A stretch of 64,000 nt of DNA, taken from an uncultured Chloroflexota bacterium. Lineage in GTDB: Bacteria; Chloroflexota; Dehalococcoidia; Lucifugimonadales; UBA826. Positions 12,511 through 41,687 of this stretch are shown piece by piece. Position numbers and translations under genes: made by a program. Each line of letters starts with the position of its first letter. The first letter of the stretch is position 1. Below the pieces are notes generated by a model, which saw only the letters and a program-made list of their open reading frames with translations, searched no databases and had not been told where the DNA came from. Location of the stretch: positions 5,074 through 69,073 of the forward strand of contig CAJWWP010000004.1 in NCBI GenBank assembly GCA_913048525.1. Reading direction: 5' to 3'.

Positions 12511-13261
12511 TTAAGTAATCATTCTCCGATAAATAATCTCTTAGTTTGTCGGGAAAATTTATAGTCATACCGTCTACACCACATTTAACAGCCTTCCTCA
12601 TCAGATCTTCGTTAAATACACCATGACATCTGACTTCTAGTCCTCTATTTTGAATTTTATTTACCAGGGCTGGAGTGATTAGTTCCGCCCTGGGACACAG
12701 TTGGTTGAATTTGGCCTCAACAGCTTCATCCACAAGACTGTCATTCCATGGGCTTCCTGGCCCCAATGGGACCAACCAACCAGTTTTGATTTCAGGGGCA
12801 TGTGACTTGGCTTCTTCTACCCATTGTTTCCAAAATGAAGTGATAACAACGTTATTCTCAATTCCATAGTTTCTAACCATATCGCAGGTTTTGCTAGCCA
12901 AACCCGGTACGCTACGGGCTTTTATTTCTATGTGAAAATTTAATTGGCCCCAGTATCTATCTAATACGTCTGTGAGAGTGCTGATCCTCTGCTCTGAAAA
13001 ACCTTTTCCAAACCAAGATCCTGCATCAAGTTTTTTAAGCTGAGCTAAAGTTAGTCCTGAGACATATCCGACCCCGTTAGTTGTTCGTTCGACGGTGTCG
13101 TCATGAATTACCACGATGTAATTATCTTTAGTGAAATGGACATCTAATTCGATGTCAGTCACTCCCATATCTAGTGCCAAGTCAAAGGCAGCCAAAGTGT
13201 TCTCTGGAGCGTAGGAAGAGGCTCCGCGATGGGCTATATTGGTAAGTTGTTTCACGCTCAC
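12503..13261 (-). CDS. Glycerophosphodiester phosphodiesterase (GDPD) family protein
   Basis: [49 protein letters not shown] is the GDPD catalytic core. GTG start overlaps the carA stop (GTGA), and the 3' end overlaps the carB start by 8 nt. Confidence 0.85.
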
Positions 13262-14364
13262 GACTTAGCCTCTCTAACCATATCTAAGAATTGGTTAAAT
13301 ATGTATTCGTTATCCTTTGGACCTGGGGAAGCCTCAGAGTGATATTGGATGCTCATTGCTGGTAAAGATCGATGTCGTATACCTTCGACAGTTTGATCAT
13401 TCATGCTTACATGGCTAACTTCGACTTCTGATGGTAAGGAGTCTGGGTCGATTGAGTAGCCGTGATTTTGGGCGGTGATATATACTCGCCCTGTGGAGAT
13501 GTCCTGTACGGGATGATTTGATCCTCGATGCCCAAATTTAAGTTTATATGTTTTTCCGCCCAGCGCTTGTCCTAGCACCTGATTACCAAGGCATATCCCC
13601 ATTATTGGCACTCGCCCTAGTAAACCCTTAACGGTTTCTACCGTATATTCAAGTAGTTCAGGGTCACCGGGACCTGGTGACAGCATTATGCCATCAGGGT
13701 TTTGTTTCAGAAGCTCTTCAGCTGTTGTGTCAGAGGGAAATACCTCTACAGCACAGCCATTGGATCTAAGTATTCTAAGTATGTTGAATTTAAGTCCAAA
13801 ATCTGATACGAGTATTTTGAGGTCTGGATTTTTTGGGGGGATATTTTTTATGGATTGAGTCCAGTTGTATGGCTCAATGGAACTTACCTGGGTTACGTAA
13901 TTTACCTTTCCATATGCTGGGATATTTTTGAGCTGGGAAAGGGCTTCTTCAGGACTTATATTGATTGCTATTGCCCCCATCATGACTCCACGTGTTCGTA
14001 TTCTCCGGGTGACGGCGCGAGTATCAATTTCGCTGATTCCAGGGATGTCATGTGCAAGTAAAAAGTCGGTCAGTGTGGATGAACTCTCCCGATGGCTGGG
14101 CTCTTGGCATTGTTGTCGCACTACAAATCCTGAGACTTGAATTTCTTTGGACTCATTGTTTTCTTTATTTATTCCATAATTACCTATCATTGGGTAGGTG
14201 GGTACGACAATCTGTCCCGCGTAAGATGGGTCAGTTAGCATTTCTTGATACCCTGTCATGGAGGTATTGAAAACCACTTCACCGTAAGCCTCGTTAACGG
14301 AACTGAACGGGACGCCTCTAAACGTAGATCCATCCTCTAATACTAGATAAGCTGGTTTTGACAA
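13258..14364 (-). CDS. carA: Carbamoyl-phosphate synthase small (glutaminase) subunit
   Basis: N-terminal CPSase small domain (VFNTSMTGYQEMLTDPSYAGQIV) and a class-I GATase (PIMGICLGNQVL, FGHRGSNHPV, QYHSEASPGP). Confidence 0.95.
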   Translation of the reverse strand: MSKPAYLVLEDGSTFRGVPFSSVNEAYGEVVFNTSMTGYQEMLTDPSYAGQIVVPTYPMIGNYGINKENNESKEIQVSGFVVRQQCQEPSHRESSSTLTDFLLAHDIPGISEIDTRAVTRRIRTRGVMMGAIAINISPEEALSQLKNIPAYGKVNYVTQVSSIEPYNWTQSIKNIPPKNPDLKILVSDFGLKFNILRILRSNGCAVEVFPSDTTAEELLKQNPDGIMLSPGPGDPELLEYTVETVKGLLGRVPIMGICLGNQVLGQALGGKTYKLKFGHRGSNHPVQDISTGRVYITAQNHGYSIDPDSLPSEVEVSHVSMNDQTVEGIRHRSLPAMSIQYHSEASPGPKDNEYIFNQFLDMVREAKS

Positions 14365-14401
14365 TTTTAGTTATCCTCTTATTAATTTACTTTACGTTGA
14401 G

Positions 14402-15748
14402 TTAGTCGTTTCGATAGACATATTCCCCACCGTAAAATGTTGCCTTAACTTTCCCAGTTAGTAATGTTCCATCTAGGGGAGTATTTTTCCCTTTGGATAA
14501 AAATAAACTTGAGTTAACTTTCCACTCTTCGTTGAGATCGAAAACTGTCACATCTGCTGGCCTGCCCACTTTCAAGGTGCCGAGGTTGCTTCCAAGAAAG
14601 GCCGCAGGGTCGGCTGTGAGTTTTTTAATAATCGTTCCTAAACCTACTTTTTTGTTGTGGTAAAGGGAGAGTACAGACCCAAGAGCCGTTTCAAAAACAC
14701 TGATTCCAAAAGCTGCCTCTTGGAATGTGCATACCTTATCGACACTACTGTGGGGCGCATGGTCTGTAGCAATAAAGTCTATTGTGCCGTCATTGATTCC
14801 GTTTGCCATAACGGACATATCAGCGACATTTCGTAATGGGGGGTTTACTTTTGCAGTGGTGTTGTAAGCCTTCGGAGTTAAGGCATCAAATACTGAGTTT
14901 TCATCACCAATCGATAGCACAGCTTCATCAGTGAGAGTGAGATGGTGTGGAGTCACCTCGCAGGTTACATTAATGCCTCGTTTTTTTGCGGCCCTAACCA
15001 TATCGAGGGTCCCTGACGTACTTATGTGAGCTAGATGAATTTTTCCTCCAGTGAGTTCAGAAAGAGAGATGTCTCTGGCCACCATCACCTCTTCAGCAGA
15101 ATTGGGCATGCCTTTTAATCCCAGTCTGGTAGCGACCCAGCCTTCATTCATTGATGCCTCGTTCGCTAATTCTGGTACTTCACAGTGGTTGATTATTGGC
15201 AATCCTAGACTGGAACTATACGTCAGGGCTTGCCTCATAATGTTTGCATCAGACACAGGTTTGCCATCATCACTAAATCCAATTACCCCGGCATCAGCGA
15301 GTTCAGACATTTCTGACAGCTCTTTCCCATGACTATTTTTGGTCACACAACCTATCGGTAAAACTCTTATAACCCCTTCCATCAGGGCCTTGGTCTTCAC
15401 GAAATCTACTATTGCCCTTGTGTCAATTGGTGGATTTGTATTTGGCATGGCGCAAACTGTAGTGAATCCACCCGCAGCAGCCGATTTGGTTCCCGTAGCA
15501 ATAGTCTCTTTGTATTCTTCGCCTGGTTCCCGCAGATGGCAGTGGACATCAATAAATCCTGGAGAGACTATCATTCCATCAGCGTCATATACTGCTGTAC
15601 TTTGACTTGCGGAGGTGATCTGACCTATTTTCTCAATTTTCCCATCCACAATTAGTAAATCGGCAACTTCATCTCTGTCAGAAGCAGGATCTATAAGCCT
15701 TCCACTCTTGATAAGGACTGATTTCGACAATGTAATTCTCCGTTTCAT
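14402..15748 (-). CDS. pyrC: Dihydroorotase
   Basis: Metal-binding FIDVHCHLREPG, the later HLAHIS and FIATDHAPH. Confidence 0.92.
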   Translation of the reverse strand: MKRRITLSKSVLIKSGRLIDPASDRDEVADLLIVDGKIEKIGQITSASQSTAVYDADGMIVSPGFIDVHCHLREPGEEYKETIATGTKSAAAGGFTTVCAMPNTNPPIDTRAIVDFVKTKALMEGVIRVLPIGCVTKNSHGKELSEMSELADAGVIGFSDDGKPVSDANIMRQALTYSSSLGLPIINHCEVPELANEASMNEGWVATRLGLKGMPNSAEEVMVARDISLSELTGGKIHLAHISTSGTLDMVRAAKKRGINVTCEVTPHHLTLTDEAVLSIGDENSVFDALTPKAYNTTAKVNPPLRNVADMSVMANGINDGTIDFIATDHAPHSSVDKVCTFQEAAFGISVFETALGSVLSLYHNKKVGLGTIIKKLTADPAAFLGSNLGTLKVGRPADVTVFDLNEEWKVNSSLFLSKGKNTPLDGTLLTGKVKATFYGGEYVYRND

Positions 15749-15754
15749 AAGGTG

Positions 15755-16741
15755 CTAAATTTCTAAGTTTTGACCGGCTGCCATGGAATAAAGTAGTGAC
15801 ATCCGGACTGCTACCCCACTTTTTACTTGCTCTTCTATAACCGATTGAGCGCCATGGGCTATGTCAGTCTCTATCTCAACACCTTCGTTCATTGGTCCAG
15901 GATGCATTACTAACGCCCCATCTTTGGCAATGGCAAGACGTCGAGCATTTATTCCGTAGGTTTGGGAATATTCCCTGAGCGAAGGAAGATGTCCTGCCCT
16001 CTGTCTTTCCAGTTGAAGTCTTAGTGTCATAATCACATCAGCATCTTTCAGTGCAGTGTCCAAGTCGGTTTGCACTTCCACTCCAGCGAAAGGATGGCCT
16101 TCCTCTGTCCGATGACCGTTAAGGAAATCATTTGGGATTAAGGTTTGAGGTCCACAAATTACAACTCGTGCCCCCATTTTAGTGAGTCCCCATAGATTTG
16201 AACGAGCTACTCTGGAATACAAAATATCGCCTACAATAACGATTTTCTTTCCCTCTATGTCTCCAATGTTCTTTCTGATCGTGTATAGGTCTAGGAGACT
16301 TTGTGTGGGGTGTGCGTGAGTGCCATCTCCCGCATTTATAATATTGGACTTCAACTGGCGGGCGAGGAAATGAGGGGCACCTGAGTGAGGGTGTCTTATT
16401 ACGATTATGTCGGCTTGCATCGCCTGTATCGTTAAAGCTGTGTTGTAGAGGGACTCTCCTTTTTTAGCACTACTTCCGCCGCTCGATACATTTATAACAT
16501 CGGCACTTAGAATTTTTGCTGCTTGCTCAAAGGAAACCCTCGTTCTAGTACTAGATTCATAAAATAGCGTAACAACAGTTTTGCCTCTAAGGGCGGGCAC
16601 TTTTCTGATTTCCCGGTCCAAAACCTGTTCCATGGCCACTGTATTGTCCAAAACGTGGGTAATTTCTTGCTTCGTGAAGCTATCCAAATCAAGAACGTGT
16701 TTCTGACCGAAAGAGTGTTTGGAGTCTGTTTCCAAGGTCAA
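15755..16741 (-). CDS. pyrB: Aspartate carbamoyltransferase catalytic subunit
   Basis: [11 protein letters not shown] carbamoyl-phosphate motif, [11 protein letters not shown] and [11 protein letters not shown]. Confidence 0.95.
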
Positions 16742-17298
16742 ATCTCGTCTCCCATACCGTCGCTTTTCGTGGTAATTACTATTTCATCTTCGCCATCTAT
16801 TTCTCGCAGTCTTACCTGTACATCTTCATCCCTGGCAGTTGGAACGTTCTTGCCGACATAGTCAGCCCTAATTGGTAGTTCCCTATGCCCTCTGTCGACT
16901 AGTACTCCTAGTTGCATCTGGCTTGGGCGTCCGAAATCGCTTATGGCATCCATCGCAGCTCTGATAGATCTTCCTGTGTAAAGAACGTCGTCAATAATTA
17001 CTACTGTTTTACCATTGATGTCGGGGGGAATGTCGGTTGGTTTCATGAGAGGACTTCCCTTTTCAGATATGTCATCTCTATACATACCGATGTCTAGTTT
17101 GCCTACAGGAATTCTTACTCCCTCGAAGCGCTCGATGGCTGTAGAAATTCGCTGAGCGAGTGGTACTCCTCTTGAATGCATACCAACTAACACTACATCA
17201 GTAACGCCACCGTTTCTCTCAAGGATTTCATGAGAAATTCGTGTTAAAGCCCTTTCTATTTGGACTGGATTTTGTATGCGTTTCTCAATTAATGGCAC
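16738..17298 (-). CDS. pyrR: Bifunctional pyr operon regulator / uracil phosphoribosyltransferase PyrR
   Basis: [13 protein letters not shown].. and the PRPP-binding loop [20 protein letters not shown] start; overlaps pyrB by 4 nt. Confidence 0.93.
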
Positions 17299-22771: not shown

Positions 22772-23299
22772 ATGAATAACAATGTATATATCACAGGGTT
22801 TTCTGGTTCAGGTAAATCTACGTCAGGTAGAGAATTGGCACTACTTTTAGAAAGAGATTTCGTCGATATGGATTCGGAGATTGAGAAACTGCATAAGCAA
22901 ACTATCCCAGACATATTTGAAGAGCACGGCGAAGTAGTTTTCAGGGGTCTTGAAACCGGTTTGTTAACCCAAATTTCAAGAAAGGATGGCCAGATTGTTT
23001 CGACTGGCGGGGGCGTTCCTACGATTCCTGAAAATGTGAAGATAATGAAGTGTACTGGTAAAATTGTTTGCCTCATGGCGAGTGTTGAAACCCTGTCTAA
23101 ACGTATCTCTCATCATTCAAATACGGCAGGGAACAAAGCAGATAGGCCCATGCTCTATTCCGATGACCAAACTGAAAGAATTCGAGACCTACTAGACATA
23201 AGAAAGAAATCTTATAGTCAGGCTAATTTACTGATTGATACGGAGGATAAATCTCCTAAAATGGTAGCAATTGAAATTGCTGAGGTCCTTGAATTATGA
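22772..23299 (+). CDS. aroK: Shikimate kinase
   Basis: Walker A ITGFSGSGKSTSGRELA, DMDSEIE, FRGLE and STGGG. Confidence 0.9.
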   Translation: MNNNVYITGFSGSGKSTSGRELALLLERDFVDMDSEIEKLHKQTIPDIFEEHGEVVFRGLETGLLTQISRKDGQIVSTGGGVPTIPENVKIMKCTGKIVCLMASVETLSKRISHHSNTAGNKADRPMLYSDDQTERIRDLLDIRKKSYSQANLLIDTEDKSPKMVAIEIAEVLEL

Positions 23300-24438
23300 G
23301 AGCAGAAAAATATAGTGATTTGGCGGCTAGGGTGACGGCTTCGGGTGGGGATCACCCAATCTGGGTGGGCTGGGGAATAATTGAAGAAATCGGGGAGAGG
23401 ATAAAGTCTCTCTTTATGCCACCGGTGGTATATGTCATTTCCGATGACCGTGTTTCGGAACACGCCAGGATGGTTCAAATTGCTTTGGAGGCTGAGGCGA
23501 TTCCTGCTCACATATTCATGATTCCTTCAGGTGAATCAAATAAGAATCTTGAAACTGTTCAGCACGTTTACAAATGGCTTGCTGACCGAAAGGCTGAGAG
23601 AGGGCACATGATTGTAGCCGTTGGTGGAGGAGTAGTAGGAGACTTGGCTGGCTTTGTTGCCGCAACATATCTGCGTGGAATGCCATTTGCCCAGGTGCCT
23701 ACTACTTTGCTAGCAATGATGGATGCCGCAGTAGGAGGTAAAGTGGCTGTAGACTTACCGCAAGGTAAGAATCTCGTAGGGGCATTTTATCAACCTCGAT
23801 TCGTGTTATCCGATGTTAGAACTCTCAGTACTTTACCTGCTCGAGAATTATCATCTGGGTGGGCGGAAGCTATAAAACACGGACTAATATTGGATAAGGA
23901 ATTACTATCCACGTTTGAGAAAAACACGGGAAAAATAAAATCTCTCGACCCAGAGATATCAACCCAAATAATAAGGGATAGTGTTGCGATTAAGGCTAAT
24001 ATTGTCTCGCAGGATGAGAAGGAGACGCTCGGTATTCGAATCTTGCTGAATTATGGGCATACGATTGGCCATGCTATTGAGTCGACTACTGGGTATACCC
24101 AGTATCTTCATGGGGAAGCTGTGAGTGTGGGTATGATGGCTGCTGCGTCCATAAGTCGATCGATGGGTCTGTTAGACGAGTCAGAAGTTAAAAGACAAAG
24201 ATCGGTCCTAGCCAGCTACGGGTTACCTATAAATGCCCATGGCCTCAATTCTACCGACATATTAGAAGCTATGAGGTCTGATAAGAAAACTTCTAGGGGT
24301 CAAATCAATTGGGTGTTGCTCGATGGAATAGGCAACGCCGTTACTAATAATTGTGTTCCTGACTATTATGTCACCGAAGCGTTGGATTCGATACTAACAG
24401 ATAATGGTGAGGCGGATGAGTTAGGACAAGGCTGTTAA
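23296..24438 (+). CDS. aroB: 3-dehydroquinate synthase
   Basis: VAVGGGVVGDLAGFVAATYLRGMPFAQVPTTLLAMMDAAVGGKVAV and NYGHTIGHAIE..HGEAVSVGM. Confidence 0.93.
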   Translation: MRAEKYSDLAARVTASGGDHPIWVGWGIIEEIGERIKSLFMPPVVYVISDDRVSEHARMVQIALEAEAIPAHIFMIPSGESNKNLETVQHVYKWLADRKAERGHMIVAVGGGVVGDLAGFVAATYLRGMPFAQVPTTLLAMMDAAVGGKVAVDLPQGKNLVGAFYQPRFVLSDVRTLSTLPARELSSGWAEAIKHGLILDKELLSTFEKNTGKIKSLDPEISTQIIRDSVAIKANIVSQDEKETLGIRILLNYGHTIGHAIESTTGYTQYLHGEAVSVGMMAAASISRSMGLLDESEVKRQRSVLASYGLPINAHGLNSTDILEAMRSDKKTSRGQINWVLLDGIGNAVTNNCVPDYYVTEALDSILTDNGEADELGQGC

Positions 24439-25344
24439 TTGGATGGTCTATCTGAGGCTATACCATATTTAGTCCTCGGTATTGGTACGGGGCTTTATGG
24501 AATCTTAGTTGGAGCTGGGGGCGGGGTGATTTTAGCGCCTGCTCTGATGATATTCTTTGGGTTAGAACCCACGGTTGCGGCTGGGACATCCCTTGCTTTG
24601 GTGTCAATAAACAGTTTATCAGGCACCGTCGCCTATAAAAGAAGTGGTCTTGTAGATACAAAGAGTGGATGGATATTCGCTTTGTCAGCTGTCCCAGGAT
24701 CAATAATTGCTCCTATGGTTTTGGACTCAGCCTCAACAACACTTTTCAAAATATTATTTGGTTTTCTGTTGCTGTTGTTAGCTCTTATTATTATTCTGAG
24801 GCCACAATACAGAGAAAAGGAATCCGTTTCCAATTTACCTGATTCTAATCAGGAGCCCGATACGATAAATAGGGTTCCATCTTGGTTGGCATTCACTCTC
24901 AGTGATAGGCATATTGTCACAAGAAGAGGGAATACGTTTAAATATCGTTTCAACGAGTCGCTTTCCGTTTTTTTTAATCTGGTGCTGGGATTTATTTCCA
25001 GTTTTTTTGGGACAGGTGGAGGATTTCTTAGAACACCTATTTTGGTATCTGTTTTTGGATTTCCTGTTCGGGTAGCGGTCGCGACATCTATATTTGCCCT
25101 TTCTATTTATGCCACAGTAGGTGCATTGGTTCATATGTATCTCGGTCATATAGATTGGTATCCAGCACTGGTGTGGTCCGGATTGGGCTTGATCATAGGA
25201 GGCCAAATTGGTGCCCGGCTGGTGGAGGTCATTAAGGGAGTAATTATTCTCAGAATATTATTAGTGGTGGTTGTGATAATGGGAATACAGTTAATATTGC
25301 AGGGAGCTTGGCCTTCGACTTTTACTTTTTTGGGAACACACTAA
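24439..25344 (+). CDS. TauE/SafE (TSUP) family anion exporter
   Basis: Duplicated 4-TM halves with GAGGGVILAPALMIFFGLEP..AAGTS and FFGTGGGFLRTPILV. TTG start immediately after the aroB stop. Confidence 0.8.
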   Translation: MDGLSEAIPYLVLGIGTGLYGILVGAGGGVILAPALMIFFGLEPTVAAGTSLALVSINSLSGTVAYKRSGLVDTKSGWIFALSAVPGSIIAPMVLDSASTTLFKILFGFLLLLLALIIILRPQYREKESVSNLPDSNQEPDTINRVPSWLAFTLSDRHIVTRRGNTFKYRFNESLSVFFNLVLGFISSFFGTGGGFLRTPILVSVFGFPVRVAVATSIFALSIYATVGALVHMYLGHIDWYPALVWSGLGLIIGGQIGARLVEVIKGVIILRILLVVVVIMGIQLILQGAWPSTFTFLGTH

Positions 25345-25355
25345 CTTGGCACGAC

Positions 25356-26519
25356 ATGGTTTTTTTTAGAATTAATTCTCATTCAGGGGCTGCTAGATCT
25401 GGTCTTATAAGCACTGCCCATGGCAAAGTAGAAACCCCTGTGTTCATGCCTGTGGCCACTCAAGGTTCCGTTAAAGCCCTAGATCCACAGGATCTGAAAG
25501 AATTGGGTGCCAGAGTGGTATTGGGGAACGCATATCATCTTTACCTGAGACCAGGAGATGAGTTGATACATGGTCTAGGTGGGCTTCATAAGTTTATGGG
25601 TTGGGATAGACCTATTCTGACAGATAGTGGTGGATTCCAGGGCTTTAGTTTGAAACATCTGAGGAATTTACATAAAAATGGAATTACTTTCAGGTCTCAC
25701 ATAGACGGCAGTACACACACGTTGAGTCCGGAATCTATTATGCAAATTCAGGCCAATCTTGGTTCAGATATAGCGATGCCATTGGATGTTTGCCTGCCCT
25801 CCGATGCCACGCATTCTTCTGTATCTGATGGAATAGTGACTACATTCGACTGGGTACAGAGATGTAAGAACGCTTGCCGAGCAGGTAACCAATTTCTTTT
25901 TGGAATTGTTCAAGGAGGGCTCTTTAAGGATCTGCGGAAGGAATCGATTGATCAGATGATATCTTTGGACATGCCAGGTTATTCTATTGGAGGATTAAGC
26001 GTCGGAGAATCAAAAAGCCAGCTATACGAAACAGCTGGATTCACAGCTGATCGATTGCCACAAAACAAGCCTAGATATCTTATGGGTGTGGGGTCCCCGG
26101 AAGATTTGGTCGAATGTGTGGCCAGAGGAGTGGATATGTTTGACTGTGTCCTTCCTAGCCGAGTGGCTCGCAATGGTGCTCTTTATACAAAGATGGGTAG
26201 GTTTAATATCACGTCAGCAAGATTCAAAAATATAGACGACCCATTTGACGTTGACTGTGACTGTTACGCATGTAGTCAGTTTTCCGCTGCTTACATCCAT
26301 CATCTTTTCAGGGCCAAGGAGTATCTTGCCTATCGTTTGGCCACAATACACAATCTAAGGTTTGTGATCAGGTTGATGGAGGAGATGAGGACTGCTATAT
26401 CTACAGGCTCTTTTCCGGCCTACAGGAAGAAATTTTGGGAAAATTATCGCGTGTCAAACGAAATAGTACGTACCAACGAAAGAGAAAAATGGTTGAAATC
26501 ATCCGGGTTAAAAGGATAA
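25356..26519 (+). CDS. tgt: Queuine tRNA-ribosyltransferase
   Basis: GKVETPVFMPVATQGSVK, ILTDSGGFQ, GIVQGG and the zinc site CDCYAC..HHL. I use ATG 25356; the ORF-track start at 25308 overlaps the tauE end. Confidence 0.93.
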   Translation: MVFFRINSHSGAARSGLISTAHGKVETPVFMPVATQGSVKALDPQDLKELGARVVLGNAYHLYLRPGDELIHGLGGLHKFMGWDRPILTDSGGFQGFSLKHLRNLHKNGITFRSHIDGSTHTLSPESIMQIQANLGSDIAMPLDVCLPSDATHSSVSDGIVTTFDWVQRCKNACRAGNQFLFGIVQGGLFKDLRKESIDQMISLDMPGYSIGGLSVGESKSQLYETAGFTADRLPQNKPRYLMGVGSPEDLVECVARGVDMFDCVLPSRVARNGALYTKMGRFNITSARFKNIDDPFDVDCDCYACSQFSAAYIHHLFRAKEYLAYRLATIHNLRFVIRLMEEMRTAISTGSFPAYRKKFWENYRVSNEIVRTNEREKWLKSSGLKG

Positions 26520-26539: not shown

Positions 26540-26818
26540 TTAGAATCCGCCCGCCACGGCCGGTACGATGCTGACTTCATCTCCAGAAGCTACTGGGCTG
26601 TTCATTCCGTCCAAAAAACGTACATCTTCACCGTTAATATAGACGTTGACAAAACTTCTCAATTCGCCGTCGTCGTCACATATACGGGCCTTAAGCCCGG
26701 GGAATTGCCCCTCTAGTGACTTCACCACTTCTACCATTGTTCCAGCATCTACAGAGGCTTTATCCTCTCCATTGGTAACCTTACGAAGAGGTGTCGGGAT
26801 CCTGACGATAGCACTCAT
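26540..26818 (-). CDS. CysO/MoaD-type ubiquitin-fold sulfur-carrier protein, C-terminus ..AVAGG-F
   Basis: 92 aa. IVRIPTPLRKVTNGEDKASV..FVNVYINGEDVRFLDG..GDEVSIVPAVAGGF resembles, from memory, M. tuberculosis CysO (..FVNIYVNDEDVRF..ILPAVAGG). One extra residue follows the Gly-Gly. Confidence 0.8.
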   Translation of the reverse strand: MSAIVRIPTPLRKVTNGEDKASVDAGTMVEVVKSLEGQFPGLKARICDDDGELRSFVNVYINGEDVRFLDGMNSPVASGDEVSIVPAVAGGF

Positions 26819-26864
26819 TTTCTTATCCTTTTTATTAAGATCTACGTATCATTGAGATCTAAAA

Positions 26865-27107
26865 CTAACCTTCTATTATGTCCCCACCAACTGGGTCCAC
26901 GCGTACACCGGTTGAAGAGACCCAGTCCAGCCCATTCTTTATGATTTCTTCGTCACCTTCTAATTCTAAAACTACCCAACCCATTGAATCTCGCACATCC
27001 GCTCTTCTTATGTTAGTCACTATTTCAAAATCCATACCCAGTTTGTAGATAACGGGTTCTTTTATCAACTCGGAAGGAAACGTAAATCGCACTCTTTTGG
27101 TAGGCAT
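26865..27107 (-). CDS. NIL-domain protein
   Basis: 80 aa. RVRFTFPSELIKEPVIYKLGMDFEIVTNIRRADV..GWVVLELEGDEE is the NIL ferredoxin-like fold, as in the C-terminus of MetN. Confidence 0.7.
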   Translation of the reverse strand: MPTKRVRFTFPSELIKEPVIYKLGMDFEIVTNIRRADVRDSMGWVVLELEGDEEIIKNGLDWVSSTGVRVDPVGGDIIEG

Positions 27108-27118
27108 TTGGCTATATC

Positions 27119-28351
27119 CTAGATCTTTTGGGCTGCTGCTAGGGCGGTCTGGAAGGTCTCGTAGTCGGGAGTGGTTTCAATAGGTTTTACAAAATCCCCC
27201 ATAGATTCCATGGTTTTCAAACCATTTCCTGTCACATATGCCACGGTAACTTCATCCCTTTTAATTTTTCCATGTTCAACTAGTTTTTTAAGACTGGATA
27301 TAACCACTCCTCCTGCAGTCTCGGTGAATATTCCTTCGGTTTCTGCCAGGAGTTTTATTCCATCTATTATAGTATTTTCCTCGGCGGCAACACCTGTTCC
27401 ATTTGTTTCTTTCAAGACTTCCAGAGAATATGGTCCCGCTGCTGGGTTACCGATTGCTAGTGACTTTGCCAAGGTCTCTGGCCTGACTGGCGTGACTTGA
27501 CCGCTCCCCGTTTTAAAGGCGCTAACAATAGGTGAGCACCCTTCTGGCTGAGCAAGGTGCATTTTTGTTTTGAGGTTCTCTATCAAACCAATGTCGTTAA
27601 ATTCTTGAAGGCCCTTCCATATTTTCGTGTGAAGTTCTCCAGATGCCCCCGGGACTACGCAATGATCAGGAGCCTTCCAACCAAGTTGCTCTGCGACTTC
27701 ATATCCTAGTGTTTTGCTACCTTCAGCATAAAACGGTCTCATATTTATATTTACGAAAGCCCAACGGTGATTGTCTGCGAGTTCACTACAAAATCTATTT
27801 GCGTGGTCATAATTACCTGTGACTGCCACCATCGTAGGCCCATAAACTGCCGCCCCTTGGATTTTTCCCTGTTCTAGGTCAGCAGGATAAAAAACCATGG
27901 TTTTCATACCAGCTTTGGCTCCGTGAGCGGCAACGGATCCCATCAGATTACCTGTAGATACGCATGCAAGCACTTCAAATTCAAATTCTAGAGCCTTAGT
28001 GGTTGTTACGGATACAGGACGATCTTTGAAAGAGTAAGTTGGGTTCACACTATCATTCTTTATATAAAGGTTGTCTAACCCTAACTGTCGTCCCAAGTTT
28101 TTAGCGTGTATCAGAGGAGTAAACCCAGTTGAAATGTCAACTGCTGACTCCTTATCTACAGGAAGAAAGTCATGGTATCTCCACATTGTGTTCGGACCAG
28201 CCGCAATAGATTCTCTACTTACGGCTTTGGAAATAGATTCATAGTCGTACGCGACCTCAAGTGGGCCAAAGCAGAATTCGCAAGCGTTAAGCGGCTCGAT
28301 AGGGTACTCGCTTCCACATTCACGGCACCTTAGACACTTTACGTGTGGCAA
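27119..28351 (-). CDS. Threonine synthase-like PLP enzyme with N-terminal zinc ribbon
   Basis: N-terminal CLRCRECG..CEFCFGPLEV, a PLP lysine region (NPTYSFKDRP) and TGNLMGSVAAHG. TTG start with AGGAG 8 nt upstream. Confidence 0.85.
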   Translation of the reverse strand: MPHVKCLRCRECGSEYPIEPLNACEFCFGPLEVAYDYESISKAVSRESIAAGPNTMWRYHDFLPVDKESAVDISTGFTPLIHAKNLGRQLGLDNLYIKNDSVNPTYSFKDRPVSVTTTKALEFEFEVLACVSTGNLMGSVAAHGAKAGMKTMVFYPADLEQGKIQGAAVYGPTMVAVTGNYDHANRFCSELADNHRWAFVNINMRPFYAEGSKTLGYEVAEQLGWKAPDHCVVPGASGELHTKIWKGLQEFNDIGLIENLKTKMHLAQPEGCSPIVSAFKTGSGQVTPVRPETLAKSLAIGNPAAGPYSLEVLKETNGTGVAAEENTIIDGIKLLAETEGIFTETAGGVVISSLKKLVEHGKIKRDEVTVAYVTGNGLKTMESMGDFVKPIETTPDYETFQTALAAAQKI

Positions 28352-28422
28352 CTAATCGCTCCTATAACTGGAAAGGGACCTTATCTGAATATCGGTTGGA
28401 AATACCCTTTAAATCAGAATAA

Positions 28423-28452
28423 ATTATTGCAATCCGCCAGTAAGAGTGTCAA
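28423..28452 (-). promoter_or_regulatory. Candidate promoter for the thrC-like/NIL/CysO-like operon
   Basis: The minus strand reads TTGACA-18 nt-AATAAT (TGTCAA at 28447-28452, ATTATT at 28423-28428 on the plus strand). It lies just downstream of the M16 peptidase stop. Confidence 0.4.
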
Positions 28453-28465
28453 GGAAGACACTGTG

Positions 28466-29755
28466 TCACTTAATCCCCCATAGGTCATGACACGATTCTG
28501 CAGGGCCAACCACGGCAATATTCATATTCTCTTCTAAGAAATACTCAGAGGCAACATTTCGTATATCCTCTAGACTTACACTGGCAAGGTCTCTCAGGTA
28601 GTCTTTGGTAGATTGGAATCTGTTTTCATTAAGCATTTGATTGCAATTCCAATTTGCTACTGAACGTGTATCTTCCATGTTCAACTTCAGGCGTCCTGTG
28701 AATAGCGACTTCACCTTGTCAAGTTCCTCAATATAAGTATCGGTTTTTATTTTTTGGAGCTCTTTCGATATTAGATATATAGTTTTTTCGTATTTCTTTT
28801 TGTCGACAGCTGCGTATATATCTATCGTTCCGGTGTCAGTATGGTGACTGGTGCCAGCTCCTATGTCATAGGCTAATCCTCTTTTCTCCCGTATTTCTTG
28901 AAATAATCTACTACTCATTCCTTCGCCAAGCATCGCTACGAGAAGATCTAGAGCATGGCGAAGCTCATGGCACCGGCTTGTACCTGGGAAGCCTATCGAT
29001 ATATGTGACTGCTCCACTCTTCTTTCCTCGCCCATAAATCGTGACTTATTTTTCACGTAATTCACGTTATTAAAGGTGTTAGCCTCGCCACAATTTAGAG
29101 ATTCCGCTAGCGGTTGTACGAAGTCAATTATTTCATCGTGATTCAGTTTCCCTGCTACGCTTATTACTAAGTTGTTGGAACTGTATTTATTTTGCATGAA
29201 TTCAACGAGAGATTCATGAGATATTTTTGACACTGACTTAATAGTTCCGGCGATATCCCTTCCCAGTGAAGTTCCGGGCCACATAAGTTCATCAAGCATT
29301 ACTTCCGCTCGTGAATTTGGGTAATCACTAACGCTGTTAATCTCTTCAATAATGACTTGGCGTTCTAACTCTATGTCTGCAGGTCTAAGCAGAGGTTCTG
29401 TGATCAACTGCAAAAGTAGTTGAATACTTTCTTGTGTTTTTTCTGCTAGGGTTCGACACCAATATGCGGTGGTTTCATAATCCGTGACTGCGTTAAGCGA
29501 TCCTCCATTTATTTCGATTGTTTCGCTTATTTTTGAAGGATCTGGGATGCTTTTGGTTCCCTTGAACAACATGTGCTCAATTAAGTGAGCTATCCCTTCT
29601 AGTCCAGGAGGCTCATGTCTTGATCCACACCTGACTCCCACATTTATGGCAATCGATGCCGCGTATGGAATCTCCTCTGTGATGATCGTTAATCCATTAA
29701 CGAGGGTGTCCGTCTGGACATTTCTTTTCAGCTTGTCTTCCTTAGAATTAGTCAA
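28466..29755 (-). CDS. M16 (pitrilysin/insulinase) family zinc peptidase
   Basis: Inverted zinc motif GIAHLIEHMLFKGT (HxxEH). The 429-aa length fits two M16 half-domains. Confidence 0.85.
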   Translation of the reverse strand: MTNSKEDKLKRNVQTDTLVNGLTIITEEIPYAASIAINVGVRCGSRHEPPGLEGIAHLIEHMLFKGTKSIPDPSKISETIEINGGSLNAVTDYETTAYWCRTLAEKTQESIQLLLQLITEPLLRPADIELERQVIIEEINSVSDYPNSRAEVMLDELMWPGTSLGRDIAGTIKSVSKISHESLVEFMQNKYSSNNLVISVAGKLNHDEIIDFVQPLAESLNCGEANTFNNVNYVKNKSRFMGEERRVEQSHISIGFPGTSRCHELRHALDLLVAMLGEGMSSRLFQEIREKRGLAYDIGAGTSHHTDTGTIDIYAAVDKKKYEKTIYLISKELQKIKTDTYIEELDKVKSLFTGRLKLNMEDTRSVANWNCNQMLNENRFQSTKDYLRDLASVSLEDIRNVASEYFLEENMNIAVVGPAESCHDLWGIK

Positions 29756-31155: not shown

Positions 31156-34056
31156 CTAGATATATTCTGATAGCAGCTCAACAAGGTGTTTGGTTTCTCT
31201 CTTTGTGCCCTGTTGAATCTGTTGTCTGCAGGAAACGCCTTCACTCACAATGATTACGTCTTTCGATTCACTTCTGATTGCTGGGAAAAGGGTGTCTTCC
31301 CCGATTTGCATGGAGATGTCAAAGTGATCTTTATAAAATCCGAATGAACCTGCCATTCCGCAACAGCCTGATTTTATTTCCACAGATTCCAGACCTGGAA
31401 TTGTTTTCAACACCTCCATCGCGGATGTTGTTCCCACGAGAGCTTTTTGATGACAGTGACCATGAAATACGACTTTCTGTTCTTGTGGGGGATTGGAGAA
31501 CCGGAATTGATCTTCTTTTTTTACCGCATATAGAAAAAAGTCTTCTATTAACATAGTGTTTCTGGATATCTCTTTTGCTTTTTCCGGCTCCGAGGCCAGG
31601 TCAGGGAAGTCACTGATAAAGCCAAGGACACAGCTGGGTTCTATTCCTACCAGCTTGGCTCCCATTTCTATGTAGGGGTAAATAGAGGATATGTTGAAAT
31701 CTACATTTGCTTTTGCATGAGACATCATTCCATTGGATAGCATTGGTCTTCCACAGCAACGGGAGTCTGGCAGGATCACTTTGTATCCTAGCTTTTCGAT
31801 AATATTTACCGTGGCAATGCCTAGTTCTGGGTGATTGTAATTAGTTGTCGTATCTGGGAATAGAACGACAGAGCCTTTGGGATTTTTCGGGATTGTTGTG
31901 TCGTCCCTTGACCTGAACCATTGTTGAAAAGTTTGTGGAGCAAAGTTGGGTAAACGTCTTCTTTTATCTATCCCAACTGTTCTCTCTAATACTTGTTTGG
32001 AAAAAGATGTGTTCATGATCCAGTTCGAAATCGGCGCAAAAAAAGATCCGATTTTACTTAGAAAATCCACATTCCCAAAAAACCTGTTGTTTAGCCCGTA
32101 CCCATTTTCGGAATGATAGATATTCAAAAACTCGTACTTCAATTTGGCCATGTCTACATTTGAAGGGCATTCTGCTTTGCAGGCCTTACATTCAAGGCAT
32201 AAGTCCATAACCTGGTGGAGTCTGTCGCTAGTTAACATGTCGGTGGGAATAGCGCCAGACATAGCGGCTCTCAAAGCGTTTGCACGCCCCCTTGTGGAGT
32301 GTTCTTCATCGCGAGTTGCCATGTATGAGGGGCACATCGTACCGCCATGTACTTTCCTGCAAGCGCCTTGGCCATTGCACATCTCTATTGCTGTCGCAAA
32401 ATTTCCTTCCTCTGAGAATGTAAAACCTGTCGGAGGAGACAAGGTTTCGTATGTTGTGCCATAGCGGAGATTTTCGGTCATCGGTGGTGAGTCGACTATC
32501 TTCCCGGGGTTCATTATTCTCTTGGGATCGAAAGTGGTTTTAACATCCCTGAAGGCTTGATAGATTTGACTTCCGAACATTTTCTCGTTGTAGCCACTTC
32601 GGACTAAACCATCGCCATGTTCTCCACTCATCGATCCGCCAAATTCTAGGACTAGGTCACTTATTTCATCAGAAATTGCGACCATACGATCTATACCTTC
32701 TTGGTTTTTTAGATTGATGAGTGGTCGAATATGGAGGCATCCTACGCTAGCGTGACCGTAGTATCCTGCCTCCGTGCCATGCTTTCTGACTATTGAGTCG
32801 AATCTTCTGACAAATTCAGGGAGCACATGTGGTGACACGGCCGTGTCTTCAACGAATGGGAGAGGCTTTGCATCGCCTGGAACATTCATCATCAAACCAA
32901 GACCAGCTTTTCTCACATCCCATACCTTTTCTTGGTCTGAGGGATCAGTCATCCAGACCAGAGAATATCCCCAACCACCCCCATTTATCTTCTCCTTGAG
33001 TAAATCAAATTTGTGTGCCAATTCTTTTTCTGAATCAGCAACTAATTCGATTGCTAATAAGGCTTCAGGTTGACCTTCAATAAAATCCGTAATCCTAGAA
33101 TAGGAGAGATTAGATTGAGCCTGACGAATAATCATGCTTCCTATTAGTTCGATTGCAGATGGGTTTATGTCCAAAGCCGCCACAGTGGCTTCCATCGACT
33201 CTATCAACTCTAGACAGTGTAGAACGGCCAGTCCTTTATATCTTGGGGTTGGAACGACTCTTAATTTAGCTTCAGTAATCGTGACCAGTGTACCTTCTGA
33301 ACCGACTACAAACCTGGCCATATTGAAATTGTTTCCACCTACAAATTCATCCAAATTGTAACCAGAGACACGTCTTTGTATTTTTGGATATCGTGAAAGA
33401 ACCTCGTCCCTGTTATCTTCTCCAATTTCAAAGAGTGATCTGTATATGTCACCTTCAAAAGTGCTTCCGCGCATCTTGGCTTCAAGAGAATCTCCATTTA
33501 GTTGGCCAAATGTTGCCGTATCACCATTGGAGAGAATAACGTCAAGCTCATGAACATTATCTACCGTTTTTCCCCACATAATTGAGTGGGCTCCACACGA
33601 GTTATTCCCTAGCGCCCCACCCACATTTCCTCTGCTACTTGTACTCGGGTCAGGCGCAAAGAGAACGTTATGTGGAGCAAGTATTTGGTTCAGTTCATCA
33701 AGAATAATGCCTGGTTGTGTACGTACCCAACCCTCATCTGCGTTGATTTCGATAACATCTCTCATGTACCTTGAAAAATCTAAAATTATAGATTCTCCCA
33801 CTGTTTGGCCGGCTAGGCTGGTACCGCCTCCTCGCGGTAGCACCGAAACTCCATACTTATGAGCAGTTTCTAGTACCGCGATAATGTCGTCATTGGATTT
33901 TGGTAGTACAACGCCTACTGGTTCAATCTGGTAAATACTCGCGTCTGTACTCCAAAGAGCCCTAGACATTTTGTCAAATCTTACTTCTCCTTGAACATGT
34001 GAACTGAGTTCTTCAACTAATTGTTGAGTATCTGAGGCGTTGGCTTGAACGGTCAT
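31156..34056 (-). CDS. FAD-linked oxidase fused to an Fe-S/CCG domain (YdiJ / GlcD-GlcF fusion type)
   Basis: 966 aa. PCMH-type FAD domain (LPRGGGTSLAGQ), a central ferredoxin-like CLECKACKAECP, and C-terminal Cys-rich CCG-type repeats (CCGRPM, CCGMAGSFG). Confidence 0.9.
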   Translation of the reverse strand: MTVQANASDTQQLVEELSSHVQGEVRFDKMSRALWSTDASIYQIEPVGVVLPKSNDDIIAVLETAHKYGVSVLPRGGGTSLAGQTVGESIILDFSRYMRDVIEINADEGWVRTQPGIILDELNQILAPHNVLFAPDPSTSSRGNVGGALGNNSCGAHSIMWGKTVDNVHELDVILSNGDTATFGQLNGDSLEAKMRGSTFEGDIYRSLFEIGEDNRDEVLSRYPKIQRRVSGYNLDEFVGGNNFNMARFVVGSEGTLVTITEAKLRVVPTPRYKGLAVLHCLELIESMEATVAALDINPSAIELIGSMIIRQAQSNLSYSRITDFIEGQPEALLAIELVADSEKELAHKFDLLKEKINGGGWGYSLVWMTDPSDQEKVWDVRKAGLGLMMNVPGDAKPLPFVEDTAVSPHVLPEFVRRFDSIVRKHGTEAGYYGHASVGCLHIRPLINLKNQEGIDRMVAISDEISDLVLEFGGSMSGEHGDGLVRSGYNEKMFGSQIYQAFRDVKTTFDPKRIMNPGKIVDSPPMTENLRYGTTYETLSPPTGFTFSEEGNFATAIEMCNGQGACRKVHGGTMCPSYMATRDEEHSTRGRANALRAAMSGAIPTDMLTSDRLHQVMDLCLECKACKAECPSNVDMAKLKYEFLNIYHSENGYGLNNRFFGNVDFLSKIGSFFAPISNWIMNTSFSKQVLERTVGIDKRRRLPNFAPQTFQQWFRSRDDTTIPKNPKGSVVLFPDTTTNYNHPELGIATVNIIEKLGYKVILPDSRCCGRPMLSNGMMSHAKANVDFNISSIYPYIEMGAKLVGIEPSCVLGFISDFPDLASEPEKAKEISRNTMLIEDFFLYAVKKEDQFRFSNPPQEQKVVFHGHCHQKALVGTTSAMEVLKTIPGLESVEIKSGCCGMAGSFGFYKDHFDISMQIGEDTLFPAIRSESKDVIIVSEGVSCRQQIQQGTKRETKHLVELLSEYI

Positions 34057-41682: not shown

Positions 41683-41687
41683 ACTCT

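What the first reader, a model, noticed from the sequence alone, without database searches (positions are those of the whole stretch)
26540..28351. ThrC-like PLP enzyme + NIL-domain protein + CysO-like Ubl ending GG-F: putative protein-thiocarboxylate sulfur amino acid pathway
- Three co-directional genes follow a TTGACA-18-AATAAT promoter, with 11-nt and 46-nt gaps. They are a 410-aa threonine-synthase-like enzyme with an N-terminal Cys4 zinc ribbon, an 80-aa stand-alone NIL domain, and a 92-aa protein.
- The 92-aa protein strongly resembles the sulfur carrier CysO (..FVNVYINGEDVRF..SIVPAVAGG) but carries one extra residue (Phe) after the Gly-Gly.
- Established precedents exist. In M. tuberculosis, CysO-thiocarboxylate and the PLP enzyme CysM make cysteine from O-phosphoserine, with the JAMM protease Mec.
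- In Wolinella, HcyS is made with a C-terminal cap that a metalloprotease removes before thiocarboxylation, for homocysteine synthesis.
- NIL-domain proteins are genetically tied to homocysteine synthesis in methanogens and to methionine sensing in MetN.
- The natural substrate of ThrC is O-phosphohomoserine, so the simplest inference is O-phosphohomoserine + Ubl-COSH giving homocysteine.
- I recall a recent report of such an O-phosphohomoserine route (metM/metO) but cannot confirm the details.
- The role of the NIL protein and the identity of the capping protease and E1 are open. Neither a JAMM protease nor a MoeB/MoeZ-like gene is in this window.
Basis: partly seen in the sequence, partly recalled or inferred. 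Interest (0 to 1): 0.65.

Follow-up and report, generated by a model that had tools for sequence, protein, structure and literature searches.

The report
Homocysteine synthase operon with NIL partner
A marine SAR202 bacterium carries a three-gene operon that most likely makes the methionine precursor homocysteine from O-phosphohomoserine using a sulfur-carrying mini-protein (the MetM/MetO route described in 2024), together with a small, widely co-conserved 'NIL' protein whose role in this route I could not find described.

Summary
On the minus strand lie a 410-aa ThrC-like PLP enzyme with an N-terminal Cys4 ribbon (27119-28351), an 80-aa NIL protein (26865-27107) and a 92-aa CysO-like Ubl ending GG-F (26540-26818). 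A conserved promoter precedes them.

The enzyme sits in a clade apart from canonical ThrC. In 23 related loci from several phyla its gene follows a SAM riboswitch. A CysO-like Ubl lies directly downstream in 65 of 80 genome loci. Other phyla add ThiF/MoeZ-type E1, a JAMM protease, a HomK-type homoserine kinase and a separate canonical ThrC. This matches the published MetM/MetO pathway (Hasebe 2024), so the core is a new member of a known kind.

The NIL protein appears to be the new part:
- It is in 42 of 80 loci, before or after the Ubl, or fused to the Ubl C-terminus in five phyla.
- It has no cysteine.
- Its model matches the methionine-binding C2 domain of MetN and keeps the Met-binding Asn.

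I infer a Met/homocysteine-sensing accessory subunit; this is untested. One-residue to whole-domain caps after GG are common in this Ubl family, which implies proteolytic maturation. No E1, JAMM or second ThrC lies in the 64-kb window, and the rest of the genome could not be examined.

The parts
28423..28452 (-). Sigma-70-type promoter: TTGACA (28452-28447), 18-nt spacer, TG-extended AATAAT (28428-23)
   Evidence: 11 of 12 consensus match. Both hexamers are conserved in L007, L010 and L012 while surrounding bases vary. This is a consensus match only; no transcript data.
28352..28422 (-). 5' leader with RBS AGGAG (28363-28359); no riboswitch
   Evidence: No Rfam family at gathering score or at E<=10. 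No hit with my SAM-riboswitch model R1. Folding z-score 0.41.
27119..28351 (-). MetM-like ThrC-family PLP enzyme, 410 aa; putative O-phosphohomoserine-dependent homocysteine synthase
   Evidence: PALP 223.8 bits. Only about 190 bits to solved canonical ThrCs, and only from residue 53 on. Sits in the clade that holds the SAM-riboswitch-controlled homologues. AF2 pLDDT 83; ThrC fold.
28253..28333 (-). N-terminal Cys4 ribbon, residues 7-33: L.C.EC...C..CFGPLEV
   Evidence: Conserved at >=93% in 84 MetM-like sequences and absent from canonical ThrC. Invariant Cys residues. No structural precedent among PDB hits.
28025..28027 (-). Codon of Lys109, in the SFKDR motif (PLP Schiff-base lysine)
   Evidence: Aligns with the SFKDR motif of the solved ThrCs and is invariant. 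That the lysine of this motif carries the PLP is from my knowledge of ThrC.
26865..27107 (-). Stand-alone NIL protein, 80 aa, no cysteine; putative Met/homocysteine-binding accessory subunit
   Evidence: PF09383 at 50.7 bits. AF2 gives a beta-alpha-beta-beta-alpha-beta fold. Foldseek top hits are the MetNI C2 domains, TM 0.80-0.83. N32 aligns with MetN N295 and A36 with A299. Directly downstream of the MetM-like gene in 42 of 80 loci.
26540..26818 (-). MetO/CysO-like sulfur-carrier Ubl, 92 aa
   Evidence: ThiS family. 72 bits to Mtb CysO 3dwg_C and 71.6 bits to the ThiS/MoaD-family chain 4n6e_B. Adjacent to the MetM-like gene in 65 of 80 loci.
26543..26551 (-). Codons Gly90-Gly91-Phe92: di-glycine followed by a one-residue cap
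   Evidence: Sequence GGC GGA TTC TAA. Relatives carry R, K, F or V, or no cap.

Best explanation
The three genes form one operon for protein-thiocarboxylate-dependent homocysteine synthesis of the MetM/MetO type.

**Proposed mechanism**
- The 92-aa Ubl is made with a one-residue cap (Phe). A protease encoded elsewhere, most likely a JAMM/Mec-type enzyme, must remove it.
- The exposed Gly-Gly carboxylate is adenylated and thiocarboxylated by a ThiF/MoeZ-type E1 encoded elsewhere.
- The ThrC-like PLP enzyme eliminates phosphate from O-phosphohomoserine and adds the Ubl-COSH sulfur at C-gamma. Homocysteine is then released, possibly through a Ubl-homocysteine adduct cleaved by the same JAMM enzyme, as with CysO-Cys and Mec.
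- The 80-aa NIL protein is a non-catalytic accessory subunit. It is a free-standing copy of the methionine-binding C2 domain of MetN. I propose that it binds methionine or homocysteine and tunes MetM or the carrier.

**Shown here**
- Gene content and family membership.
- Clade placement of the enzyme.
- The regulon link (SAM riboswitch) and the neighbourhood links.
- The fold of the NIL protein and its conserved Asn.

**Inferred**
- Substrate and product.
- Cap removal.
- Identity of the E1 and the protease in this genome.
- The function of the NIL protein.

Confidence is about 0.78 for the core pathway and about 0.35 for the sensor role of NIL.
For: **1. The pathway is published.**
- The MetM, MetO, MoeZ and Mec steps are listed in GapMind 2026 Appendix 4.
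- S. albulus metM has an upstream SAM riboswitch.

**2. The window enzyme is not a canonical ThrC.**
- It scores 192 bits to Aquifex ThrC 2zsj. The canonical ThrC encoded next to a MetM-like gene in L057 scores 520 bits.
- An NJ tree puts the window, all 80 genome loci and the riboswitch-bearing Micromonosporaceae genes in one clade apart from canonical ThrC.
- Clade signatures: STGN-L136 where canonical ThrC has STGN-T, plus R205, Y208, K296-S297, G306 and the Cys4 ribbon.

**3. Methionine regulon.**
- Rfam SAM riboswitch RF00162 (51-96 bits, gathering score 44.4) lies directly upstream of the homologue in 23 loci.
- These come from Actinomycetota, Dormiibacterota, Chloroflexota, Sumerlaeota and a deltaproteobacterium.
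- Four are ThrC-NIL-Ubl triads like the window's: L037, L038, L039 and L041.

**4. Pathway partners cluster with the homologue elsewhere.**
- L054: CysK-like, ThiF, MetM-like, Ubl, NIL, ThiF, JAB.
- L081: JAB, MetM-like, Ubl, NIL, ThiF-rhodanese (481.7 bits to the MoeZ model, below its 647-bit cutoff).
- L057, L062, L069: MetM-like, Ubl, NIL, canonical ThrC, HomK (TIGR02535 at 578 bits against a cutoff of 446), aspartate kinase.

**5. The Ubl.**
- CysO-like.
- Caps after GG occur in 32 of 66 family members, from one residue to whole domains.

**6. The NIL protein.**
- Present in 42 of 80 loci and tightly coupled to the gene upstream of it.
- Ubl::NIL fusions occur in five phyla. JAMM lies nearby in all four fusion loci with enough flanking sequence.
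- The fold matches MetN C2.
- N32 aligns with N295, whose N295A mutation abolishes L-Met binding (PMC6233128).
- The protein has no Cys, so it cannot act as a persulfide carrier or bind an Fe-S cluster through cysteines.
Against: - No enzyme assay exists for any member of the Chloroflexota branch.
- I could not obtain the S. albulus MetM sequence or read Hasebe 2024. The link to the characterised enzyme is therefore indirect: 49-51% identity to Micromonosporaceae homologues that are SAM-riboswitch controlled.
- The window has no riboswitch, E1, JAMM or homoserine kinase.
- The cyanobacterial homologue was reported to show threonine synthase and threonine deaminase activity in vitro, with no clear MetM activity when sulfide was the sulfur source.
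- NCBIfam TIGR00260 (thrC) is passed: 269.8 bits against a cutoff of 167.1.
- For NIL, no ligand or partner has been shown.
- NIL is absent from cyanobacterial loci, from all but one (L091) of the Actinomycetota loci, and from some Dehalococcoidia loci.
- NIL co-occurs with SAM riboswitches, so it is not simply an alternative regulator.
Confidence: 0.75

Rival explanations
1. The 410-aa protein is the cell's real, or a bifunctional, threonine synthase. The Ubl and NIL genes are neighbours with a regulatory or unrelated role.
For: - TIGR00260 thrC is passed, at 269.8 bits against a cutoff of 167.1.
- All database names say 'threonine synthase'.
- The phosphate- and PLP-binding residues shared with ThrC are kept.
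- The Microcystis homologue showed weak threonine synthase activity in vitro.
- No second ThrC lies in the window.
Against: - It scores only about 190 bits to solved ThrCs, against 450-520 bits for a canonical ThrC.
- A canonical ThrC is encoded in the same locus as a MetM-like gene in L035, L057, L062 and L069.
- Cyanobacteria keep two copies.
- A SAM riboswitch, not a threonine signal, controls 23 homologues.
- The STGN-T residue is invariantly replaced by Leu.
Confidence: 0.1
2. The system makes cysteine from O-phosphoserine (a CysM/CysO-type reaction), or another thiol metabolite, rather than homocysteine.
For: - The Ubl's best solved relatives are Mtb CysO (3dwg_C) and the ThiS/MoaD-family chain 4n6e_B.
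- Several clusters also hold a CysK/CysM-like enzyme, so the carrier may be shared.
Against: - The PLP enzyme belongs to the ThrC branch, not the CysK/CysM branch. CysM models are not among its best 25 NCBIfam hits.
- The clusters carry a separate CysK-like gene for cysteine.
- The links point to homoserine and methionine: SAM riboswitches, HomK, aspartate kinase and canonical ThrC.
- Housekeeping context and wide conservation argue against a natural-product role.
Confidence: 0.06
3. The Ubl is mainly a SAMP/Urm1-like protein modifier, or a carrier for molybdopterin or tRNA thiolation. Its position next to the ThrC-like gene does not reflect sulfur delivery to that enzyme.
For: - NCBIfam SAMP1 (NF041918) is passed, at 67.1 bits against a cutoff of 60; a MoaD-family model also matches.
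- The window encodes Mo-enzyme genes (CoxLSM-like, XdhC, MobA).
Against: - Adjacency to the MetM-like gene holds in 65 of 80 loci across about ten phyla, mostly with 4-nt overlaps or short gaps.
- The sequence is closest to CysO.
- No MoaE or MoeB lies nearby.
Confidence: 0.04

Closest known systems
MetM/MetO O-phosphohomoserine route to homocysteine (Streptomyces albulus; Hasebe et al. 2024, as cited in GapMind 2026 and PMC12172450)
   Same: - A ThrC-like PLP enzyme plus a ThiS/CysO-type carrier.
- Homologues under a SAM riboswitch.
- A carrier that needs maturation, and a MoeZ-type E1.
   Different: - No riboswitch here.
- An extra, conserved NIL gene sits between enzyme and carrier.
- The E1 and protease are not in the window.
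- Identity to the characterised enzyme was not measured; it is about 50% to riboswitch-controlled actinobacterial homologues.
CysM/CysO/Mec/MoeZ cysteine pathway of Mycobacterium tuberculosis
   Same: - The carrier is about 45% identical over its full length (72 bits).
- The logic is the same: O-phospho-amino acid plus protein thiocarboxylate.
- A JAMM hydrolase and a ThiF-rhodanese E1 occur in related clusters.
   Different: - The PLP enzyme is of the ThrC branch, not the CysM branch.
- The substrate is inferred to be O-phosphohomoserine.
- Mtb CysO ends in a free GG.
HcyS/HcyD/HcyF/MetY of Wolinella succinogenes and QbsE/QbsD of Pseudomonas (recalled from memory)
   Same: The carrier is made with a C-terminal cap after GG that a JAMM protease removes. 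L041 has the same 'CF' cap as QbsE.
   Different: HcyS feeds an O-acetylhomoserine sulfhydrylase (a fold-type I enzyme), not a ThrC-like enzyme. No NIL partner is known for either system.
C2 (NIL) regulatory domain of the methionine importer MetN
   Same: - Pfam NIL.
- Model TM-score 0.80-0.83 to 3TUZ/3TUI.
- The L-Met-binding Asn (N295) and A299 align with N32 and A36.
   Different: - Free-standing and not fused to an ABC ATPase.
- About 18% identity.
- Ligand and partner unknown.
DUF39 (MA1821) with NIL-ferredoxin (MA1822) homocysteine pathway of methanogens, Desulfovibrio and Dehalococcoides
   Same: A NIL domain genetically tied to homocysteine synthesis, with its function still unknown (PMC5764234).
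   Different: - No ferredoxin domain and no cysteine here.
- The partner is a PLP enzyme using O-phosphohomoserine, not DUF39 acting on aspartate semialdehyde.
Canonical threonine synthase (ThrC; 2ZSJ, 1UIM, 2D1F, 6CGQ)
   Same: Fold, PLP lysine, most substrate-phosphate residues, and the inferred substrate.
   Different: - 32-34% identity.
- An extra Cys4 ribbon.
- STGN-L instead of STGN-T, and about 30 further clade-specific residues.
- Different regulon and neighbours.

Membership tests
MetM (ThrC-like homocysteine synthase) | Fold-type II, ThrC-type PLP enzyme with the catalytic lysine | tested here: met
   PALP 223.8 bits. SFKDR with K109 invariant. AF2 model matches ThrC structures at E of 1e-27.
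MetM (ThrC-like homocysteine synthase) | Paralogue distinct from canonical ThrC, in the clade whose genes are under SAM-riboswitch control | tested here: met
   NJ tree. Bit-score contrast of 192 against 520. Riboswitch in 23 loci. Same NCBIfam score pattern as riboswitch-controlled L005.
MetM (ThrC-like homocysteine synthase) | Direct orthology to the characterised S. albulus MetM | not tested
   The sequence and the paper (PMC11497804) are not held. No Streptomyces protein was retrieved.
MetM (ThrC-like homocysteine synthase) | Converts O-phosphohomoserine plus MetO-COSH to homocysteine | not testable with these tools
   Needs biochemistry.
MetM/MetO system | MoeZ/ThiF-type E1 and Mec/JAMM hydrolase in the same genome | tested here: inconclusive
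   Absent from the 64-kb window. Present beside homologues in 16 loci (ThiF) and 14 loci (JAMM).
MetO/CysO sulfur-carrier Ubl | ThiS/MoaD beta-grasp family with a C-terminal Gly-Gly | tested here: met
   PF02597 at 52.4 bits. Aligned to CysO up to GG.
MetO/CysO sulfur-carrier Ubl | Free GG carboxylate in the primary translation product | tested here: not met
   One extra residue, Phe92. 32 of 66 relatives are also capped, so processing is implied rather than exclusion from the family.
NIL domain / MetN C2-like | Pfam NIL match, ferredoxin-like fold, conserved Asn of the N-I-x motif | tested here: met
   (50.7 bits against 24). (TM 0.80-0.83). (N32 aligns with N295).
NIL domain / MetN C2-like | Binds L-methionine and transmits inhibition | not testable with these tools
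   Needs ITC or DSF, and activity assays.
Canonical threonine synthase | Passes the thrC model; STGNT phosphate loop; no N-terminal ribbon; sole ThrC of the genome | tested here: inconclusive
   The HMM cutoff is passed. The loop is STGNL, a ribbon is present, and the clade is separate. Whether it is the sole ThrC of this genome is unknown.
CysM (O-phosphoserine sulfhydrylase) | CysK/CysM branch of PALP enzymes | tested here: not met
   The best NCBIfam hits are all ThrC models, and no CysM or CysK model is among the best 25.
DUF39 / NIL-ferredoxin pathway | NIL fused to a 4Fe-4S ferredoxin, with a DUF39 partner | tested here: not met
   80 aa, a NIL domain only, no Cys. No DUF39 was found among the window ORFs scanned.

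The most novel reading that the evidence does not exclude
The NIL protein is a previously unrecognised third component of MetM/MetO-type homocysteine synthesis. It would be a free-standing, MetN-C2-like methionine or homocysteine sensor that binds MetM or the carrier.

In the lineages where it is fused behind the carrier's Gly-Gly, it would gate JAMM-dependent maturation of the carrier. End-product feedback would then act on the sulfur carrier itself.

This would also give the first functional handle on the NIL domain of the DUF39/NIL-ferredoxin homocysteine pathway.
Probability: 0.3. Interest if true: 0.65.

Novelty: new variant of a known kind. Interest (0 to 1): 0.5.

Why it matters
- **Marine methionine synthesis.** SAR202 is one of the most abundant deep-ocean bacterial groups (from my own knowledge). 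The operon suggests how it makes homocysteine. It also shows that 'threonine synthase', 'SAMP1' and 'FeS-binding protein' are misleading names for these three genes in many metagenomes.
- **A possible third component.** The NIL protein travels with MetM in Chloroflexota, Nitrospirota, a syntrophaceaen, a deltaproteobacterium, Planctomycetia, Omnitrophota, Sumerlaeota, Elusimicrobia, Methylomirabilota, a Caldimicrobium and one Actinomycetota locus. It is sometimes fused to the carrier.
- **An open question becomes testable.** This points to a component, or a control step, that the searchable literature does not mention. It offers a tractable 80-aa soluble protein for asking what NIL domains do in homocysteine synthesis, open since the DUF39/NIL-ferredoxin work.

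Tried and rejected
1. **NIL as a replacement for the SAM riboswitch.** Rejected. Both occur together in L037, L038, L039, L041, L073 and L080.
2. **The upstream M16 peptidase (28466-29755) as the de-capping protease.** Rejected.
   - It is adjacent only in the marine SAR202 sub-lineage.
   - Capped Ubls in L016, L017, L020, L021 and L024 have no M16 neighbour.
   - The L040 hit is on the opposite strand, at 47 bits.
3. **ThrC::Ubl (P0238, P0260) and ThrC::NIL (P0189) 'fusions' among the representatives.** Rejected as read-through or frameshift artefacts. They have Arg-rich junk linkers, and the downstream gene's own start is retained. They show adjacency only.
4. **A known riboswitch or structured leader in the window.** None found.
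5. **Reading Hasebe 2024.** Not held.
6. **Retrieving a Streptomyces MetM.** Searches gave Micromonosporaceae or unnamed proteins only.
8. **Literature linking NIL to MetM/MetO, or SAR202 to methionine synthesis.** Nothing found.
9. **A persulfide or Fe-S role for NIL.** Rejected, because the protein has no cysteine.
10. **The TauE/SafE and TGT genes downstream.** Conserved synteny within Dehalococcoidia only, and convergent in orientation. I treat them as neighbours, not parts.
Full report
**What is there**

Three co-directional minus-strand ORFs are present as described:
- a 410-aa protein at 27119-28351, with a TTG start and the RBS AGGAG;
- an 80-aa protein at 26865-27107;
- a 92-aa protein at 26540-26818.

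The gaps between them are 11 and 46 nt. Pfam assigns PALP, NIL and ThiS.

The large protein starts with a Cys4 motif (C9, C12, C24, C27). This motif is invariant or nearly so in its homologues.

The small protein aligns end to end with M. tuberculosis CysO (3dwg_C, 72 bits). It then carries one more residue, Phe, after Gly-Gly.

A TTGACA-18-AATAAT promoter with a TG-extended -10 lies 72 nt upstream. Its hexamers, the RBS and the TTG start are conserved in relatives while the rest of the spacer drifts.

The leader has no Rfam match and no unusual folding.

Names attached to close homologues place the window in the SAR202 / Dehalococcoidia group of Chloroflexota.

**What the large enzyme is**

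By HMM cutoffs it would be called threonine synthase: TIGR00260 gives 269.8 bits against a cutoff of 167.1. Several lines show it is a paralogue.
- Solved canonical ThrCs match it at only 168-193 bits, and only from residue 53 on.
- A canonical ThrC encoded beside a homologue (L057, 375 aa) matches the same structures at 452-520 bits.
- In a neighbour-joining tree, the window protein, 80 genome homologues and the actinobacterial homologues form one clade apart from canonical ThrC. This tree is crude.
- The clade has its own signature:
  - the N-terminal L.C.EC..C..CFGPLEV ribbon;
  - Leu in place of the Thr of the STGNT loop, in 100% of 84 sequences;
  - R205, Y208, S212, K296-S297, G306, G347-G348 and T380.
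- The PLP lysine and most other shared active-site residues are kept.
- The AF2 model (pLDDT 83) has the ThrC fold. No solved structure shares the ribbon.
- That the STGNT Thr contacts the substrate phosphate is from my own knowledge of ThrC. What the Leu substitution does is inference.

**Link to methionine**

The homologue gene is immediately preceded by a SAM riboswitch (RF00162, 51-96 bits, gathering score 44.4) in 23 loci. A covariance model of my own found the same sites and none in the window. The loci are:
- Micromonospora and Actinoplanes (L005, L006);
- ten other Actinomycetota loci;
- a Dormiibacterota locus;
- eight Chloroflexota loci;
- a Sumerlaeota locus;
- a deltaproteobacterium.

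This is the feature reported for S. albulus metM. The published pathway is summarised in GapMind 2026: carrier MetO, Mec hydrolase needed for MetO maturation, MoeZ ligase, and MetM, 'often misannotated' as threonine synthase. I could not read the primary paper.

**Neighbourhoods**

A scan of one genome per species returned 80 loci from about a dozen phyla. I called ORFs and searched them with profiles built from the window proteins.
- A CysO-like Ubl lies directly downstream of the enzyme gene in 65 of 80 loci.
- A NIL gene lies directly downstream in 42 of 80 loci.

| Arrangement | Loci | Main taxa |
|---|---|---|
| enzyme-Ubl | 27 | cyanobacteria, Actinomycetota, some Dehalococcoidia |
| enzyme-NIL-Ubl | 18 | all Chloroflexota, like the window |
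| enzyme-Ubl-NIL | 15 | mostly Nitrospirota |
| enzyme-[Ubl::NIL fusion] | 5 | five phyla |
| enzyme-NIL | 4 | Chloroflexota |
| enzyme alone | 11 | mixed; two are at contig ends |

Other phyla show the complete system side by side.
- **L054:** CysK-like, ThiF, enzyme, Ubl, NIL, ThiF, Prok-JAB.
- **L081:** JAB, enzyme, Ubl, NIL, ThiF-rhodanese (481.7 bits to the MoeZ model, below its 647-bit cutoff).
- **L055:** Rrf2, enzyme, Ubl::NIL, rhodanese-ThiF, JAB.
- **L057, L062, L069:** enzyme, Ubl, NIL, canonical ThrC, HomK (TIGR02535 at 578 bits against a cutoff of 446), aspartate kinase.

The last arrangement places the enzyme beside the producer of O-phosphohomoserine and beside the real ThrC. 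Cyanobacteria also keep both copies.

Within close SAR202 relatives the triad keeps its order while the flanks change.

**The cap**

Close relatives end GG-R, GG-K or GG-F. Deeper relatives end GG. Across 66 Ubls:
- 34 are uncapped;
- 11 have one extra residue;
- 14 have two to seven, including 'CF';
- 7 continue into a whole domain: five NIL, one ThiF, one AhpD-like.

A variable cap at a fixed position implies removal. JAMM genes lie within 6 kb in 14 loci. That includes all four Ubl::NIL loci with enough flanking sequence.

The M16 peptidase upstream of the window operon is only lineage synteny.

**The NIL protein**

- **Conservation.** Mean column identity is 86% among SAR202. P18, A36, V38, G43, E48, G51 and G67 are invariant across phyla, and N32-I33-R34 are nearly so.
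- **No cysteine.** The 'FeS-binding protein' label given by some sources is therefore doubtful.
- **Fold.** The AF2 model (pLDDT 74) is a beta-alpha-beta-beta-alpha-beta domain. Its best structural matches are the C2 domains of the MetNI methionine importer, at TM 0.80-0.83 and rmsd 1.4-1.5 Å. ACT domains follow.
- **Key residues.** A profile of 23 NIL proteins aligns N32 with MetN N295 and A36 with A299.
  - N295A abolishes L-Met binding.
  - A299 lies on the strand whose register shift locks the C2 dimer (PMC6233128).
- **Gene coupling.** The NIL gene follows its upstream gene closely in either order. The median gap is about 12 nt after the enzyme gene and about 1 nt after the Ubl gene.
- **Dispensability.** NIL has been lost inside NIL-bearing clades (L021, L025, L026). 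This suggests an accessory rather than a catalytic role.
- **Not a riboswitch substitute.** It co-occurs with the riboswitch in six loci.

My best reading is a methionine- or homocysteine-binding accessory subunit. A docking or adaptor role, or a cap-domain role, is not excluded. NIL is also the unexplained partner in the DUF39 homocysteine pathway, which Dehalococcoides appears to use (PMC5764234).

**Limits**

- Only 64 kb of the genome is available. It holds no E1, no JAMM, no second PALP enzyme and no conventional met genes.
- The 80 loci were chosen by similarity to the window enzyme. They cannot show whether this NIL subfamily also occurs elsewhere.
- ORF calls, the tree and the counts are my own quick analyses.
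- I found no paper tying NIL to MetM/MetO, but I could not check the primary MetM paper.

**Verdict**

- The core is a new member of the known MetM/MetO pathway, in an abundant marine lineage.
- The conserved NIL partner and the Ubl::NIL fusions make it a new variant worth a bench test.

Noticed in passing
L055:7288-7803, L058:3041-3475, L065:6334-6906, L073:7611-8144, L080:7275-7790: Single ORFs encode the CysO-like Ubl, a short linker after Gly-Gly, and then a full NIL domain. They come from five different phyla. The carrier's GG is therefore internal and must be cleaved free. JAMM genes lie nearby in four of the five loci; the L058 contig is too short to tell.
   Followed up: partly
L091 (ORF directly downstream of the MetM-like gene) and L039: In L091 the Ubl is fused at its C-terminus to a ThiF-type E1. 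In L039 it is fused to a 164-aa AhpD/CMD-like domain with a CxxC motif. These are further examples of whole-domain 'caps' after GG.
   Followed up: no
L035:7116-7542: A T-box leader (RF00230, 104 bits) lies downstream of the MetM-like/Ubl pair in a Chloroflexi contig. The same contig also carries a canonical ThrC (2594-3694) and an aspartate kinase.
   Followed up: no
representatives P0183, P0204, P0221, P0237, P0241, P0244, P0263, P0269; P0190, P0201, P0265: More distant ribbon-bearing ThrC-like proteins (35-40% identity) carry a C-terminal PadR-like winged-helix domain (about 490 aa in total). Others carry a roughly 200-aa C-terminal extension (about 615 aa). These may be enzyme-regulator fusions.
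   Followed up: no
window 26540-28351: Annotation traps. NCBIfam cutoffs would name the enzyme 'threonine synthase' and the Ubl 'SAMP1'. Some sources name the cysteine-free NIL protein 'FeS-binding protein' or 'ABC-type methionine transport ATPase'.
   Followed up: yes
window 22772-26519: Shikimate kinase, DHQ synthase, a TauE/SafE-family permease and tRNA-guanine transglycosylase run convergent to the operon. The TGT-TauE-DHQS block stays next to the triad in 11-15 Dehalococcoidia loci. I judge this to be lineage synteny; a sulfur link for TauE was not tested.
   Followed up: partly
window 28466-29755 and 59160-61853: There are two M16 (insulinase-family) peptidases. One, of 429 aa, lies directly upstream of the operon on the same strand. 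The other is a double-length protein of 897 aa. The first is adjacent only in the marine SAR202 sub-lineage.
   Followed up: partly
window 39436-43046, 48324-50117, 31156-34056, 9181-17298: - A CoxLSM-like molybdenum hydroxylase with XdhC and MobA.
- A 966-aa FAD-oxidase / Fe-S / CCG fusion.
- A pyrR-pyrB-pyrC-carA-carB operon.
   Followed up: no
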